64,000 nt of DNA. Origin: an uncultured Erysipelotrichaceae bacterium (GTDB lineage: Bacteria; Bacillota_I; Bacilli_A; RF39; UBA660). A model generated the notes under the pieces. It ran no database searches and was not told the DNA's origin. It was given only the letters and a program-made list of their open reading frames with translations. Position numbers and translations under genes: made by a program. The stretch spans positions 6,920 through 70,919 of the forward strand of contig CADBKG010000005.1 in assembly GCA_902795215.1 (NCBI GenBank), read 5' to 3'. Positions 31,405 to 34,083 of the stretch are shown here, in pieces; within the stretch, counting starts at the first letter, position 1, and every line of letters starts with the position of its first letter.

Positions 31405-32604
31405 ATGAAAAGGATATGGATTTTATTTATTAGTTTATTTTTAATACCAACACTAGTTAATGCAGAAACACTTACATATGAAGTGTGTGAAAATGGATGT
31501 GAGTATTCAAGTCTTAGTGATGTAGAAACAGCAATTAGAAACATATCAGATTTAAGTGATAAAGACATAATAATTAATGTTAATAGTGATATTACATCGG
31601 ATTATCATTTAAACATTGGTGATTTTGATAATATGGCAAATTCAGTAACTATAAATGGTAATAATCATGATTTTAATGGTAGATCCATTGCGTTTATCTC
31701 AAAACAAGTAGAAATAAATAATTGCAGTAATTTAAGAGAAATAGACTTTGTTAATTCTGCAAAAATCGACCTAAAAAATTCAAATATAAAAGCAATACTT
31801 TTATATTACATGGATTCAAACGGTCAAATCAAATCAGAGGAAATTAATTTGTCAGAAATATTTGATATTGATGAAATGTCATTAAATAGTCTTAAAACCT
31901 TGTTACTTTTAGGTAATTTTAAAATAGAAAATATGGATTTAAGTAATAATGTATTAATGCCTATTGGTGGAACTATAAATGTATATAATAGCAATCTAAA
32001 TAAAGTATTTAATTTTTCTGAAGCAAGAATTAATATAACAACAAATATATATAATTCAAAATTTAATTCATTAAAATATGTTAATATTGCCAGCGAAGAA
32101 GACGATGCGGTTGAAGAATATGAGAGGTTTTTAACTTCTAACTTATTAGATTCATCTGTATTAATAAGCTATGATATATATGATTTAGATAAAGCATTAT
32201 ATAATGAGCAATTAGGTACTTATACAACTGTATACTTCGATAAAGAAGCAAAGTTAAAACCTAGTGAAAAGTTAAATCTAGTAGACTATCTTGATTATTA
32301 TACAGAAGATAAAGAAATAGAATATACAATAGAAGATGAAAGCATTGCTAGAATGGAAAATAAAGAACTAACTGCATTAAAAGAAGGAAGTACTAAAGTA
32401 ACAGTTACGACTGATGAAGGACATGTTATATATAGAATTAATTTAGTTGTAGAAAAAGAAACTATTCCAGAAAAGATAGATAAGATGACTATAAAAGTGC
32501 CAATCACTGGAAGTAAAGTTAAAGCTTGGGTAGTGGTAGTTAGCGTTTTGCTTCTAGCAGTTATAGGAGTGTGCTCATATATGTTAATTAAAAGAAAAAA
32601 ATAA
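31405..32604 (+). CDS. surface protein: signal peptide, Big_2-like Ig domain, C-terminal TM anchor
   Basis: MKRIWILFISLFLIPTLVNA signal; LTALKEGSTKVTVTTDEGHVIYRINLVV (Big_2-like); C-terminal AWVVVVSVLLLAVIGVCSYMLIKRKK. Confidence 0.6.
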   Translation: MKRIWILFISLFLIPTLVNAETLTYEVCENGCEYSSLSDVETAIRNISDLSDKDIIINVNSDITSDYHLNIGDFDNMANSVTINGNNHDFNGRSIAFISKQVEINNCSNLREIDFVNSAKIDLKNSNIKAILLYYMDSNGQIKSEEINLSEIFDIDEMSLNSLKTLLLLGNFKIENMDLSNNVLMPIGGTINVYNSNLNKVFNFSEARINITTNIYNSKFNSLKYVNIASEEDDAVEEYERFLTSNLLDSSVLISYDIYDLDKALYNEQLGTYTTVYFDKEAKLKPSEKLNLVDYLDYYTEDKEIEYTIEDESIARMENKELTALKEGSTKVTVTTDEGHVIYRINLVVEKETIPEKIDKMTIKVPITGSKVKAWVVVVSVLLLAVIGVCSYMLIKRKK

Positions 32605-32629
32605 TTCCAAAATTTTGGAATTGTTTTTT
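32603..32629 (+). terminator. rho-independent terminator
   Basis: AATTCCAAAA/TTTTGGAATT palindrome then GTTTTTT. Confidence 0.65.
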
Positions 32630-32666
32630 CTTGAATTTTTAAATGATTTGTGTATATAATATACAT

Positions 32667-32746
32667 AGAAAAAGAGATGCACTCTAGTTTAGATGCACCT
32701 CCGAATGGGTTGTGCACCTACTTAAATGTAGGTGCTATTTTTTATT
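32667..32746 (+). ncRNA. candidate ~80-nt small RNA (antitoxin-like), own promoter and terminator
   Basis: TTGAAT (32631-32636), 18 nt, TATAAT (32655-32660). Body contains duplicated AGATGCAC (32675, 32691) and CCTCC (32698-32702). Strong terminator GCACCTAC-ttaaat-GTAGGTGC plus T-run (32714-32746). Convergent with, and overlapping, the 3' end of the minus-strand small ORF. Confidence 0.35.
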
Positions 32747-32868
32747 CTCTTCACTTTTGTGAAGAGATTTGAACTAATATTAATAGAATTACTATTAGTA
32801 TTAGTAGAATTATAGCTAAATAAGCCAAATCCCCCAGAGCGTGTTGTAATAATATTATGATTAATCAT
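32722..32868 (-). CDS. small ORF (48 aa as written), possibly a frameshifted 38-aa hydrophobic peptide
   Basis: AGGAGG 6 nt upstream of ATG 32868; promoter TTGAAT-17-TTAAAT (32967-32939). The in-frame product is N/S/T-rich. An adjacent frame encodes LAIILLILIVILLILVQISSQK ending at TGA 32751-32753. Confidence 0.35.
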   Translation of the reverse strand: MINHNIITTRSGGFGLFSYNSTNTNSNSINISSNLFTKVKRIKNSTYI

Positions 32869-33010
32869 GCTCTGCCTCCTTCCTCAGTATATAAAAGTTG
32901 GAGGCACACCTACTACTAGAATAACATCTCTTAAACTCATTTAAACATAAATAAAAAGCGGATTCAAGGTATATGAAAATATTATCAAAGTTTTGTAAAA
33001 AAAAGAGAAC

Positions 33011-33967
33011 TTATTTTAAAAGTTCCTTTATTTTATCTGTATTTTTAAAGTTTAACTTGGCTATCTTTTTAAGTTCATCAAATCCGTATTTTTTAGCTAT
33101 TTCTTTTCCAAATTCATCTACTATAGGGCCTGCTCCTTTTGGAATAGTGCCATATGTTTTAGATAGTTCTTCCATCTTTTTTAAGAATATATATCTACTT
33201 ATTATACTTGCACATGCTACAGAGTAACATTTATCTTCAGCTTTGGTTGTAAAAGTTATGTTTGTTACTTTTTCTGGTATTCTATAAATGTGTTCAAAAT
33301 ACTTTTTTGGATATACAAACTGGTCTACAACTATATAGGAGTAATCAAAGTTATCTTTTTTAGTTAGACTAACTAATACTTTGTTGTGAAGTATTGCTTT
33401 TATTTGGTTCATATTAGTAAGTCCTTCTTTATTATAATCATCTGGATTTAATGTGTAAGATGCAAAAGGGATTTTCTTTGATATAGTAGGGGCAATCTCT
33501 AATATTTTTTCATCAGTAAGTTTTTTTGAGTCTTTAACACCAAGTTCGTTTAAAAATGAAATATTTTCTTTTGATACATATGTGGCTGTTACAACTATAG
33601 GACCAAAGTAATCTCCAGTGCCAACTTCATCAGAGCCAATAGTGCTGACGTGCTTAAATCTTGGATCATCAAGTGCTTCTTTTTTCTTTTCATCCTTTTT
33701 CTTTTTAGCATCTATTTCAGCATCTACATTTCTAGAGTTTAAATGTCTTTCTCTATCTCTCCACCATGAATAGTCTATATCAGCGCTTATACCTTGGAAC
33801 ATGATTTTACCAGATTCATATAAAGTAACAACAGTTCCTGCGCCATCATCTGCTTGAAATACAGAATAGGGTGGTTTTTTTTCTCTAGTAGTATCTTTAT
33901 AGTGCTCTATAATTTCATCTTTTAAATTATCACTTACTTTAAAAACAAATGTTTGTTGATTTGCCAT
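33011..33967 (-). CDS. rnhC: ribonuclease HIII
   Basis: N-terminal TBP-like domain, then IGSDEVGTGDYFGPIVV catalytic DE motif and a C-terminal SIISRY segment; 318 aa. Confidence 0.85.
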   Translation of the reverse strand: MANQQTFVFKVSDNLKDEIIEHYKDTTREKKPPYSVFQADDGAGTVVTLYESGKIMFQGISADIDYSWWRDRERHLNSRNVDAEIDAKKKKDEKKKEALDDPRFKHVSTIGSDEVGTGDYFGPIVVTATYVSKENISFLNELGVKDSKKLTDEKILEIAPTISKKIPFASYTLNPDDYNKEGLTNMNQIKAILHNKVLVSLTKKDNFDYSYIVVDQFVYPKKYFEHIYRIPEKVTNITFTTKAEDKCYSVACASIISRYIFLKKMEELSKTYGTIPKGAGPIVDEFGKEIAKKYGFDELKKIAKLNFKNTDKIKELLK

Positions 33968-34083
33968 ATTAATCCCTCTTTCTATATAATTTTAACATAC
34001 TTTTATAAATAAAAAAAGTTATTAAAATAACAAAAAAATAGTGACTTTTTTCTTTTATGAGTTTATTATTAAATAGTGAGGCA

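What the first reader, a model, noticed from the sequence alone, without database searches (positions are those of the whole stretch)
32631..32967. Convergent small-ORF / small-RNA module resembling a type I TA locus, with the hydrophobic peptide sitting out of frame
The ~400-nt gap between the surface-protein terminator and rnhC looks like two convergent transcription units. Minus strand: promoter TTGAAT-17-TTAAAT (32967-32939). Its leader has TGCCTCC (32906-32900), which can pair with GGAGGCA (32879-32873) and occlude the strong SD AGGAGG. ATG is at 32868. As written, the ORF gives a 48-aa N/S/T-rich peptide (MINHNIITTRSGGFGLFSYNSTNTNSNS...). The neighbouring frame encodes an uninterrupted TM helix, LAIILLILIVILLILVQISSQK, ending at TGA 32751-32753. 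Removing one T from the TTT run (plus-strand AAA 32818-32820) would yield MINHNIITTRSGGFGLLAIILLILIVILLILVQISSQK (38 aa). That is a single-pass peptide of the kind made by type I toxins (BsrG/TxpA/Fst class). Its GGF-hydrophobic pattern also recalls YjcZ-type small sporulation peptides. Plus strand: promoter TTGAAT-18-TATAAT (32631-32660), then an ~80-nt RNA with duplicated AGATGCAC and a CCTCC anti-SD element. A strong terminator (32714-32746) overlaps the 3' end of the minus-strand transcript. 3'-overlapping antisense RNAs and SD-sequestering 5' stems are hallmarks of Firmicute type I TA loci.
Basis: partly seen in the sequence, partly recalled or inferred. Interest (0 to 1): 0.6.

Follow-up and report, generated by a model that had tools for sequence, protein, structure and literature searches.

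The report
Small membrane-toxin and antisense RNA cassette
The gap holds a conserved 340-bp cassette: a 25-residue membrane peptide gene hidden out of frame behind a decoy-like leader reading frame, facing a small antisense RNA gene, which is the layout of an RNA-controlled toxin-antitoxin pair from an undescribed family, with expression and toxicity still untested.

Summary
The cassette (32967-32631) recurs in eight loci (seven distinct sequences): a second copy in this 1.34-Mb, 27% GC genome and six metagenome contigs.

The hydrophobic frame is the real gene. It encodes M-AYLA[IV][ITV]LLILIVILLILVQISSQK, 25 aa, window 32828-32751, with its own start codon (ATG in 5 sequences, TTG in 2). Site changes there are 19 synonymous to 3 non-synonymous (P=2e-8). 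The SD-led 48-aa N/S/T-rich frame shows 1 to 21.

No frameshift repair is needed. All copies keep the strong SD+ATG one base out of frame, and the TTT run is absent in several copies. A sequencing error or a 38-aa fusion is therefore not supported.

The mRNA is predicted to be heavily locked, with covariation support for four local hairpins:
- an anti-SD/SD hairpin;
- a hairpin over each start codon;
- a 5'-3' fold-back (duplex -33 to -43 kcal/mol, 0/500 shuffles).

A conserved promoter and terminator bound a ~80-nt antisense RNA. It is fully complementary to the 3' UTR, and its 5' end mimics the mRNA leader.

Best reading: a new type I toxin-antitoxin-like family that combines a hok/mok-style mRNA with a bsrG/SR4-style 3' antisense RNA.

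No read data were available. Earlier scan notes describe similar layouts on other DNA, none with look-alike sequence.

The parts
32939..32967 (-). Promoter of the peptide mRNA: -35 TTGAAT (32967-32962), 17-nt spacer containing a TATG '-16' element, -10 TTAAAT (32944-32939). Predicted start near A32932.
   Evidence: Sequence. -35, TATG and -10 are kept in all copies (TTGAAT/TTGAAA/TTGATT; TTAAAT/TTTAAT) in the alignments. Transcription was not tested.
32669..32932 (-). Predicted peptide (toxin) mRNA, about 264 nt, from the conserved 5' block AAGAGAUG to the U5 run.
   Evidence: The ends are inferred from promoter spacing and from a hairpin plus U5 at the 3' end. The whole stretch is conserved and structured: 85 consensus pairs, 92.5% paired, 12 pairs with compensatory changes.
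32900..32932 (-). 5' leader arm of the 5'-3' fold-back (AAGAGAUGUUAUUCUAGUAGUAGGUGUGCCUCC). It includes the anti-SD CCUCC at 32904-32900.
   Evidence: RNAduplex with the 3' UTR gives -33 to -43 kcal/mol in all 5 sequences, z -6 to -9, 0/500 dinucleotide shuffles. The helix appears in every single-sequence MFE and in the alifold consensus.
32873..32906 (-). Anti-SD/SD hairpin: UGCCUCC (32906-32900) pairs with GGAGGCA (32879-32873). The SD is AAGGAGG at 32881-32875.
   Evidence: Local hairpin of -10 to -15 kcal/mol in all five sequences. It is present in the consensus fold of the 5' 140 nt of 7 sequences. The SD unpaired probability is about 0 in 4 of 5 sequences.
32722..32868 (-). Leader ORF (frame 0, 48 codons). 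Its ATG lies 6 nt after AGGAGG and it reads through the whole peptide ORF. The product is not conserved.
   Evidence: SD+ATG is kept in all 7 distinct sequences at a spacing of 6-9 nt. Site changes are 1 synonymous to 21 non-synonymous in the overlap. There is no coding signature in its unique N-terminal part. The C-terminus is shifted by a 4-nt indel between W and L023. The frame stays open across the overlap automatically, because the +1 codons have T at position 2.
32837..32872 (-). Hairpin enclosing the leader-ORF ATG and its first 11 codons.
   Evidence: Helices 4 and 5 of the consensus: 8 of 10 pairs carry compensatory changes, paralogue against orthologues. It is not recovered in the consensus fold of the 5' 140 nt of 7 sequences.
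32807..32833 (-). Hairpin that buries the start codon of the 25-aa ORF (GGGAUUUGGCU-UAUUU-AGCUAUAAUUC).
   Evidence: Predicted in all sequences at -7 to -14 kcal/mol. The closing pair varies UA x3, AU x2, GC x2 between two synonymous third-codon positions. The start-region unpaired probability is <=0.06 in orthologues.
32751..32828 (-). Gene for the 25-aa membrane peptide (TTG start): M-AYLAIILLILIVILLILVQISSQK. It lies in the +1 frame relative to the leader ORF.
   Evidence: The peptide is conserved in 7 distinct sequences. Changes are 19 synonymous to 3 non-synonymous (binomial P=2e-8). The start is ATG in 5 and TTG in 2, and the stop TGA is invariant. It matches no Pfam or NCBIfam family.
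32772..32806 (-). Long A/U-rich hairpin inside the peptide coding region.
   Evidence: Helix 7 of the consensus: 16 pairs, 92.5% of cells paired, no compensatory change. Inverted repeat I4.
32748..32765 (-). Hairpin over the peptide stop codon (UCUUCAC-AAAA-GUGAAGA).
   Evidence: 7 pairs, 100% paired. There is one compensatory U-A to A-U change between W and the other copies.
32669..32702 (-). 3' arm of the fold-back. It is also the terminator-like hairpin of the peptide mRNA (GGAGGUGCAUCUAAACUAGAGUGCAUCUCUUUUU).
   Evidence: Local hairpin of -10 to -14.4 kcal/mol followed directly by U5 in all 5 sequences. It is complementary to the leader and nearly invariant.
32631..32660 (+). Promoter of the antisense RNA: TTGAAT-18-TATAAT.
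   Evidence: Promoter scan gives 10 of 12 matches. Both hexamers are identical in every copy whose contig reaches it.
32667..32746 (+). Predicted antisense RNA, about 80 nt: stem-loop 1 (32674-32701), a spacer, and an intrinsic terminator (32714-32735 plus a T run). It is fully complementary to the 3' UTR of the peptide mRNA and ends 5 nt before the peptide stop codon.
   Evidence: Terminator scan. The two-hairpin fold appears in all five sequences. The terminator stem has a compensatory G-C to A-U change in L025 and L038. It matches no Rfam family. Its first 30 nt resemble the mRNA leader.

Best explanation
This is a self-contained type I toxin-antitoxin-like cassette from an undescribed family.

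The minus strand makes a ~264-nt mRNA. Its product under selection is a 25-residue single-helix membrane peptide (32828-32751). That ORF has no usable SD of its own, and its start codon is buried in a conserved hairpin. It lies 40 nt downstream of, and one base out of frame with, a strong SD+ATG that opens a leader ORF with a non-conserved product.

Most likely (inferred): ribosomes load at the leader ORF, and their passage melts the hairpin so that the peptide start can be used. This would be the mechanism known for mok/hok.

The leader SD is itself held by an anti-SD. The first ~33 nt of the mRNA can pair with its last ~33 nt, giving a tac/fbi-like fold-back. The full-length transcript is therefore predicted to be closed and silent.

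The plus strand makes an ~80-nt antisense RNA from a near-consensus promoter. This RNA is perfectly complementary to the mRNA 3' UTR, including the fold-back arm, and its 5' end is a look-alike of the mRNA leader.

Inferred: the antisense RNA outcompetes the leader for the 3' arm and forms a long duplex that RNase III (encoded in this genome) cuts. That would remove the protective 3' structure and keep the peptide from being made, as for bsrG/SR4.

Shown: the coding frame, the conserved signals, the predicted structures and covariation, and the complementarity.

Inferred: transcription, coupling, toxicity and the antitoxin action.
For: Distribution:
- Second genomic copy plus six metagenome loci.

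Coding frame:
- Codon-level selection acts only in the hydrophobic frame: 61 synonymous to 19 non-synonymous pairwise against 0 to 86 in frame 0; 19 to 3, P=2e-8, against 1 to 21.
- The start codon is ATG or TTG in all sequences. SD+ATG0 is kept at 6-9 nt, always in frame 0 with the TM ORF at +1.
- The leader peptide is not conserved.

RNA structure:
- 12 of 85 pairs carry compensatory changes, 0/500 shuffles, slid controls 0-4.
- The pair closing the TM-start hairpin is UA, AU or GC at synonymous sites.
- The SD is sequestered.
- The leader/3' UTR duplex has z -6 to -9.

Antisense RNA:
- Both promoters and both terminators are conserved.

Host enzymes and literature:
- RNase III and two RNase J genes are present.
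- The hok/mok/Sok logic is described in PMC9841398. SR4 action at the 3' end of bsrG is described in PMC8309996.
Against:
- Toxicity is untested. A 25-aa peptide with one C-terminal lysine could be a harmless small membrane protein.
- The fold-back helices are almost invariant, so they have no covariation support. They could be a by-product of the cassette's inverted-repeat ends.
- The ATG0 hairpin is not recovered when the 5' 140 nt of 7 sequences are folded alone.
- The predicted SD state barely changes with or without the 3' UTR in 4 of 5 sequences, so a switch in translation is not predicted.
- All sequences come from one species group, in 2-3 effective lineages. Conservation of the frame offset and of ATG0 is therefore only modest evidence (roughly P~0.1 each).
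- The family is absent from 17 congeners and 250-400 family genomes searched.
Confidence: 0.6

Rival explanations
1. The true product is a ~38-aa fusion: the leader N-terminus joined to the hydrophobic helix. It would be made either because the assembly has a 1-nt homopolymer error or by programmed +1 ribosomal frameshifting.
For: - The strong SD+ATG is the only good ribosome entry site, and the hydrophobic frame is +1 in every copy.
- A G run (GGGGG, GGGG or GGG) lies 2-5 nt before the hydrophobic ORF in all copies except the paralogue. GGG-G could in principle slip +1, and the run recalls the SD-like stimulator of prfB (my own knowledge).
- The paralogue's leader begins MTVY, like BsrG.
Against: - An error is excluded: the same offset appears in 7 distinct sequences from independent assemblies.
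- The TTT run is not conserved.
- No shared slippery site exists. The paralogue has no G run.
- Synonymous variation starts right after the ATG/TTG (GCT/GCA/GCG, TAT/TAC, TTA/CTT/CTC), so the +1 frame is already read there.
- The would-be N-terminal extension has no coding signature: 7 synonymous to 33 non-synonymous.
- The position is a start codon in 7 of 7 sequences.
- BLASTP of the fusion against BsrG gives E=0.96.
- No in-frame version was found among 5.8 billion called proteins.
Confidence: 0.07
2. The strong SD serves the 25-aa ORF directly. The conserved hairpin that encloses ATG0 would fold out about 36 nt and bring the SD to within roughly 9-14 nt of the hydrophobic ORF's start. This is a split ribosome-binding site as in phage T4 gene 38 (my own knowledge). 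ATG0 would be a competing, harmless start used when the hairpin is open.
For: - The ATG0 hairpin has the strongest covariation in the RNA: 8 of 10 pairs compensatory.
- With it closed, the linear distance from SD to TM start is 10 nt in W, L023 and L024, 9 in L025 (6 to its first ATG) and 14 in the paralogue. These are counted.
- This would explain why the leader peptide sequence is free to drift.
Against: - The effective spacing is at or beyond the usual optimum and varies from 6 to 14.
- The TM start is itself paired in a second hairpin.
- ATG0 is retained at ideal spacing in all copies, which suggests it is used.
Confidence: 0.13
3. Not a toxin-antitoxin pair. The 25-aa peptide is a benign small membrane protein, for example a regulator or a sporulation-associated peptide. 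Its mRNA merely happens to be under antisense and structural control.
For: - Toxicity is untested.
- There is only one charged residue at the C-terminus.
- The host is a spore-former with a small genome (cotJ genes are nearby).
- The cassette sits in ordinary chromosomal intergenic gaps, not in a prophage or plasmid.
Against: - Multi-layer silencing is the signature of genes whose product must not be made by accident (PMC9841398): anti-SD, two start-codon hairpins, a fold-back, and a stronger convergent antisense promoter.
- The cassette is present in two copies with a patchy, strain-variable distribution, which is typical of TA cassettes.
- It matches no YjcZ or other small-protein family.
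Confidence: 0.18
4. The annotated 48-aa N/S/T-rich ORF is the real gene, and the hydrophobic frame is a by-product of AT-rich sequence.
For: - It has the strong SD and ATG.
- It is the ORF that gene callers report in public assemblies (P0001-P0005).
- Its codons (AAT, TCT, ACT, AGT) are the common ones of an AT-rich genome (by eye).
Against: - 0 synonymous against 86 non-synonymous pairwise codon differences in the overlap.
- 1 to 21 site changes.
- Its C-terminus is frame-shifted by a 4-nt indel between close relatives.
- Its openness across the overlap follows automatically from T at codon position 2 of the other frame.
Confidence: 0.02

Closest known systems
hok/mok/Sok of plasmid R1 and its chromosomal homologues in enterobacteria (type I TA)
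   Same: - An SD-bearing leader ORF (mok) overlaps the toxin ORF in another frame. Its translation, not its product, is what matters.
- The leader SD is held by an upstream anti-SD.
- The very 5' end pairs with the very 3' end (tac/fbi), giving a closed, silent full-length mRNA.
- The RNA duplex is cut by RNase III (PMC9841398).
- Here the equivalent layout is seen or predicted.
   Different: - No sequence similarity: there is no Hok/Gef hit.
- The peptide is 25 aa, not ~50.
- The host is a low-GC Firmicute.
- The antisense RNA is complementary to the 3' UTR fold-back arm, not to the leader-ORF initiation region.
- The requirement for 3' processing is unknown.
bsrG/SR4 and the other Bacillus subtilis 3'-overlap systems (txpA/RatA, bsrE/SR5, yonT/SR6)
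   Same: - Convergent genes in a Firmicute.
- The antisense RNA overlaps the 3' end of the toxin mRNA.
- The toxin SD sits in a stem.
- RNase III-dependent decay, with an effect on the SD structure reported for SR4 (PMC8309996; PMC3834814).
- The C-terminal SSQK resembles BsrG's SSQKKK.
   Different: - The peptide is not homologous: BLASTP E 0.96 or no hit, and no family hit.
- There is no Rfam hit for the RNA.
- Those toxins start directly behind their SD. They have no out-of-frame leader ORF and no reported full 5'-3' fold-back.
Clostridioides difficile type I TA modules (CD2517.1/RCd8, CD0956.2/RCd10 and others)
   Same: Convergent toxin and antitoxin genes with long complementarity in a clostridial lineage, encoding small membrane toxins (PMC6563280).
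   Different: - Those toxins are 34-59 aa with lysine-rich C-termini.
- They sit mostly in prophages or next to CRISPR arrays.
- They have no leader ORF.
- No sequence similarity was detected here.
aapA1/IsoA1 of Helicobacter pylori
   Same: The primary transcript is locked by a 5'-3' long-distance interaction and successive SD-sequestering structures. The toxin is about 30 aa (PMC9841398 and PMC8309996).
   Different: - The antisense RNA acts at the 5' region.
- There is no overlapping leader ORF.
- The organism and sequence are unrelated.

Membership tests
Type I toxin-antitoxin system (generic definition) | Small (<60 aa) hydrophobic peptide with a transmembrane helix, encoded by a real gene under selection | tested here: met
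   25-aa peptide with a 16-19-residue hydrophobic core. 19 synonymous to 3 non-synonymous changes, P=2e-8. Conserved start and stop codons.
Type I toxin-antitoxin system (generic definition) | Cis-encoded antisense RNA gene overlapping the toxin mRNA | tested here: met
   A conserved TTGAAT-18-TATAAT promoter and an intrinsic terminator bound ~80 nt opposite the 3' UTR in all copies. This is evidence from sequence signals only.
Type I toxin-antitoxin system (generic definition) | Both RNAs are actually transcribed | not testable with these tools
Type I toxin-antitoxin system (generic definition) | The peptide is toxic when over-expressed and the RNA neutralises it | not testable with these tools
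   Needs an experiment.
Type I toxin-antitoxin system (generic definition) | Toxin mRNA folded so that translation initiation is blocked | tested here: met
   Anti-SD/SD hairpin and start-codon hairpins are predicted in all sequences, with compensatory changes.
hok/mok/Sok | Toxin homologous to Hok/Gef | tested here: not met
   No Pfam or NCBIfam hit at E<=10 other than noise.
hok/mok/Sok | Overlapping SD-bearing leader ORF in another frame with a dispensable product | tested here: met
   The layout is conserved in 7 of 7 sequences and the leader product is not conserved. Dependence of peptide synthesis on leader translation was not tested.
hok/mok/Sok | 5'-3' fold-back (tac/fbi) closing the full-length mRNA | tested here: inconclusive
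   Strong, significant complementarity that appears in every MFE. The helices are invariant, so there is no covariation, and the real 3' end is unknown.
hok/mok/Sok | Antisense RNA pairs with the leader-ORF translation initiation region | tested here: not met
   The antisense RNA lies opposite the 3' UTR. There is no significant pairing with the 5' 120 nt.
TxpA/BsrG family with RatA/SR4-type antitoxins | Peptide sequence similarity to TxpA/BsrG | tested here: not met
   BLASTP against BsrG (sequence taken from PMC4342826): no hit, or E 0.96. No family hit.
TxpA/BsrG family with RatA/SR4-type antitoxins | Convergent antisense RNA overlapping the toxin 3' end | tested here: met
   Predicted overlap of ~78 nt at 32669-32746.
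TxpA/BsrG family with RatA/SR4-type antitoxins | Antitoxin RNA matches a described RNA family | tested here: not met
   Rfam 15 scan at E<=10 gave only noise hits to eukaryotic snoRNA and miRNA models.
YjcZ-type small sporulation peptides | Match to the curated family model, with the glycine-rich N-terminus as part of the conserved product | tested here: not met
   No NCBIfam or Pfam hit for any version of the peptide. The GGF motif lies in the leader frame and is replaced by SGD, SGN or LFN in other copies.
Programmed +1 ribosomal frameshift (prfB-type) | Conserved slippery codon with a stimulatory element, and a fused product under selection | tested here: not met
   There is no shared shift site and the G run is missing in the paralogue. 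The upstream part shows no coding signature.

The most novel reading that the evidence does not exclude
A Gram-positive counterpart of the hok design with a twist. The toxin is made only through translation of an out-of-frame leader ORF, and the mRNA is closed by a 5'-3' fold-back. The antitoxin RNA is a molecular mimic of the mRNA's own 5' leader and competes with it for the 3' fold-back arm. One binding event would then both expose the message ends to RNases and create an RNase III substrate.
Probability: 0.3. Interest if true: 0.75.

Novelty: new variant of a known kind. Interest (0 to 1): 0.55.

Why it matters
Type I toxin genes are too short for gene callers. Public assemblies annotate the wrong 48-aa frame at this locus.

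This cassette shows a clean way to recover such genes: compare paralogues and strain variants, and ask which frame takes the synonymous changes.

If the mechanism holds, the hok solution would not be confined to enterobacteria, having either arisen independently or spread to a reduced-genome, spore-forming Firmicute. The hok solution here means a leader-ORF-dependent toxin, an anti-SD and a 5'-3' fold-back. In this case it is combined with the 3'-overlap antisense strategy of Bacillus.

The leader/antisense mimicry suggests a testable competition mechanism for how a 3'-binding antitoxin can act on a 5' event. That question is still only partly answered for bsrG/SR4.

Tried and rejected
- Rfam scan of 31500-34000 at E<=10: only noise.
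- Pfam and NCBIfam for the 48-aa, 38-aa, 37-aa, 25-aa and 40-aa versions: nothing below E 0.04, all far under cut-offs.
- blastn of the cassette against plasmid and phage collections: no match.
- Leader 33-mer with up to 3 mismatches in 400 genomes of the family: only this genome.
- Exact leader 27-mer and a 21-mer of the 3' block in the species-representative genomes: none.
- The same 21-mer in JGI metagenomes: one chance hit.
- Weak DNA hits in congeners were low-complexity matches inside other genes.
- Peptide profile against 17 congeners and 250 family genomes: only chance hits inside other genes.
- Search for an in-frame, called version of the hydrophobic peptide among 5.8 billion proteins: 165 candidates, none at E<=10.
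- Idea that the antisense RNA's CCUCC blocks the SD in trans: only 5 bp could pair, the motif is missing in two copies, and asRNA against the mRNA 5' part is not above shuffles.
- Idea that antisense binding flips the SD from free to sequestered through the GGAGG decoy in the 3' UTR: predicted only in the window copy (SD unpaired 0.53 falling to 0.00), not in the other four.
- The repeat finder did not report the gapped leader/3' UTR inverted repeat. RNAduplex did.
Full report
**Observation**

Minus strand:
- TTGAAT-17-TTAAAT at 32967-32939.
- TGCCTCC at 32906-32900 and GGAGGCA at 32879-32873.
- ATG at 32868, opening a 48-codon N/S/T-rich ORF.
- A 25-codon hydrophobic ORF in the neighbouring frame (32828-32751, TTG start, TGA stop).

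Plus strand:
- TTGAAT-18-TATAAT at 32631-32660.
- An 8-bp G+C-rich hairpin with a T run at 32714-32745.

Motif counts alone are not above shuffles. The case rests on conservation.

**Relatives**

The window's genome is a 1.34-Mb, 27% GC assembly, 93% complete. It has a second copy of the whole unit on another contig at 76% identity. Homology starts at one -35 box and ends at the other.

Searching with the 48-aa frame-0 product, which is the ORF gene callers report, recovered five proteins on six metagenome contigs.
- L023, L024, L036 and L037 share the rnhC/surface-protein synteny of the window. The rnhC C-terminus is 100% identical in L024. L036 has cotJB-cotJC-rhomboid-rnhC upstream.
- L038 and L025 have the upstream genes of the paralogue's locus.

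This gives seven distinct sequences from one species group.

Nothing was found in:
- plasmid or phage collections;
- 17 congeneric species;
- 250-400 genomes of the family;
- species-representative genomes;
- JGI metagenomes.

**Which frame is real**

Across the 26 overlapping codons, the hydrophobic frame shows 61 synonymous against 19 non-synonymous pairwise codon differences. Frame 0 shows 0 against 86.

With seven sequences, single-site changes are 19 synonymous to 3 non-synonymous in the hydrophobic frame (expected synonymous fraction 0.28, P=2e-8). Frame 0 shows 1 to 21.

The peptide is M-AYLA[IV][ITV]LLILIVILLILVQISSQK in all copies. The first codon is ATG in five sequences and TTG in two, and the stop is invariant.

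Frame 0 stays open over the overlap for a trivial reason. Hydrophobic codons have T in the second position, so every frame-0 codon there ends in T and cannot be a stop.

Outside the overlap, the frame-0 product is not conserved:
- The N-terminal 13-15 residues differ freely (MINHNIITTRSGG, MTYIKVFTTSSGD, MIYIKIFTTSSGN, MTVYKYIESYLHLFN). No frame shows a coding signature there (7 synonymous to 33 non-synonymous).
- The C-terminus is shifted by a 4-nt indel between the window and its closest relative.

**No frameshift repair**

All seven sequences place the strong SD (AGGAGG) 6-9 nt before an ATG in frame 0. The hydrophobic ORF starts 40 nt further on (43 in the paralogue), always in the +1 frame.

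The same layout in this genome and six other independent assemblies excludes a homopolymer error.

Synonymous variation begins directly after the ATG/TTG. No slippery site is shared. The G run before the start is missing in the paralogue. A programmed +1 shift is therefore unlikely.

A search for an in-frame called version of the peptide found none.

**RNA anatomy**

The conserved transcript block starts at A32932, 7 nt after the -10 box. It ends in a hairpin plus U5 at 32702-32669 (-10 to -14 kcal/mol in all copies).

The consensus fold of five sequences has 85 pairs. Of cells, 92.5% are paired, and 12 pairs carry compensatory changes. None of 500 column shuffles reached this, and slid controls gave 0-4.

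Supported helices:
- A hairpin enclosing ATG0 (32872-32837), with 8 of 10 pairs compensatory. It was not recovered when the 5' 140 nt of 7 sequences were folded alone.
- A hairpin burying the peptide start (32833-32807). Its closing pair is U-A, A-U or G-C, formed by two synonymous third positions (Ala GCN and Leu YTN).
- A hairpin over the stop codon (32765-32748).
- The antisense terminator.

The anti-SD/SD hairpin (32906-32873) is predicted in every sequence at -10 to -15 kcal/mol. The SD is predicted unpaired with probability near 0 in four of five sequences.

The first 33 nt of the mRNA are complementary to its last 33 nt. The duplex is -33 to -43 kcal/mol, z -6 to -9, 0/500 dinucleotide shuffles. 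This helix closes every single-sequence MFE. It is nearly invariant, so it has no covariation support.

**Antisense RNA**

The plus-strand promoter is identical in every copy that reaches it. About 80 nt downstream sits an intrinsic terminator, with a compensatory G-C to A-U change in two copies.

The RNA folds into a 5' stem-loop, made from the two AGAUGCAC repeats, plus the terminator. It is the exact complement of the mRNA 3' UTR and stops 5 nt short of the peptide stop codon.

Its first 30 nt (AAGAGAUGCACUCUAGUUUAGAUGCACCUCC) resemble the mRNA leader (AAGAGAUGUUAUUCUAGUAGUAGGUGUGCCUCC). The two RNAs would therefore compete for the same 3' arm.

It has no significant pairing with the mRNA 5' part. 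It matches no Rfam family.

**Mechanism**

The layout matches the logic described for hok/mok/Sok (PMC9841398):
- a leader ORF whose translation, not whose product, is needed;
- an anti-SD;
- a tac/fbi fold-back.

The position of the antisense RNA matches the Bacillus 3'-overlap systems, where SR4 triggers RNase III decay and tightens SD sequestration (PMC8309996). The genome encodes RNase III and two RNase J paralogues.

I therefore propose the following:
- Leader-ORF translation opens the start hairpin of the 25-aa ORF.
- The fold-back keeps the full-length RNA closed and protected.
- The antisense RNA displaces the leader from the 3' arm and creates an RNase III substrate.

These steps are inferred. 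A simple SD on/off switch through the GGAGG decoy in the 3' UTR is predicted only for the window copy, and I do not rely on it.

An alternative is that the ATG0 hairpin brings the SD next to the peptide start, with an effective spacing of 6-14 nt. This cannot be excluded.

**Comparison and membership**

The peptide matches no curated family.

The BsrG sequence was checked against the literature (PMC4342826). BLASTP finds only the C-terminal SSQK, at E 0.96.

Known clostridial type I toxins are 34-59 aa and have no leader ORF (PMC6563280).

This is therefore a new family of the type I kind, with a combination of regulatory features not described together.

Earlier notes of this scan report similar small-peptide and antisense layouts in other uncultured low-GC bacteria. 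Sequence look-ups found no look-alike.

**Limits**

- All sequences come from 2-3 effective lineages.
- Toxicity is untested.

Noticed in passing
window 31405-32604; L023 462-1676; L025 541-1026: The surface-protein gene next to the cassette is hypervariable between strains. It is 33% identical in L023 and 57% in L025, while the last ~45 residues are nearly identical (EKE[TS]IPEKIDKMTIKVPITGSKVKAW plus the membrane anchor). The neighbouring rnhC is 100% identical.
   Followed up: partly
L025 1-1026 versus L009 and the window: Contig L025 joins the upstream gene of the paralogue's locus (...TILKLAK*) to the cassette and then to the surface-protein gene of the window's locus. This is either a real rearrangement by recombination between the two cassette copies or a chimeric metagenome assembly across the repeat.
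   Followed up: no
window 32722-32868 and proteins P0001-P0005: Public assemblies call the non-conserved 48-aa frame-0 ORF as the gene here. The selected 25-aa ORF is below the length limit of gene callers and is unannotated.
   Followed up: yes
L009 ~1660, L024, L025, L036, L038 at the peptide start: In all five copies with an ATG start, a stop codon of the third frame overlaps it (TAATG or TGATG). The two TTG-start copies lack this. No upstream ORF in that frame was found, so the meaning is unclear.
   Followed up: partly
window 32631-32702 versus 32900-32967: The two ends of the cassette are imperfect inverted copies of each other: a promoter plus the first ~33 nt of each transcript. The cassette therefore looks like it is bounded by functional inverted repeats. 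No target-site duplication was seen at either genomic copy.
   Followed up: partly
L009 1947-3410 (own genome contig C3): The paralogous cassette lies between two hypothetical membrane-protein genes and a convergent sufU-like/sufS-like pair (named by eye, no family search run). Both cassette copies sit between convergent gene ends, with no mobile-element genes nearby.
   Followed up: partly
window 32596-32629: A perfect A/T-rich palindrome (AAAAAATAATTCCAAAA/TTTTGGAATTGTTTTTT) with T runs on both strands. It is probably a bidirectional terminator shared by the surface-protein gene and any read-through from the cassette.
   Followed up: no
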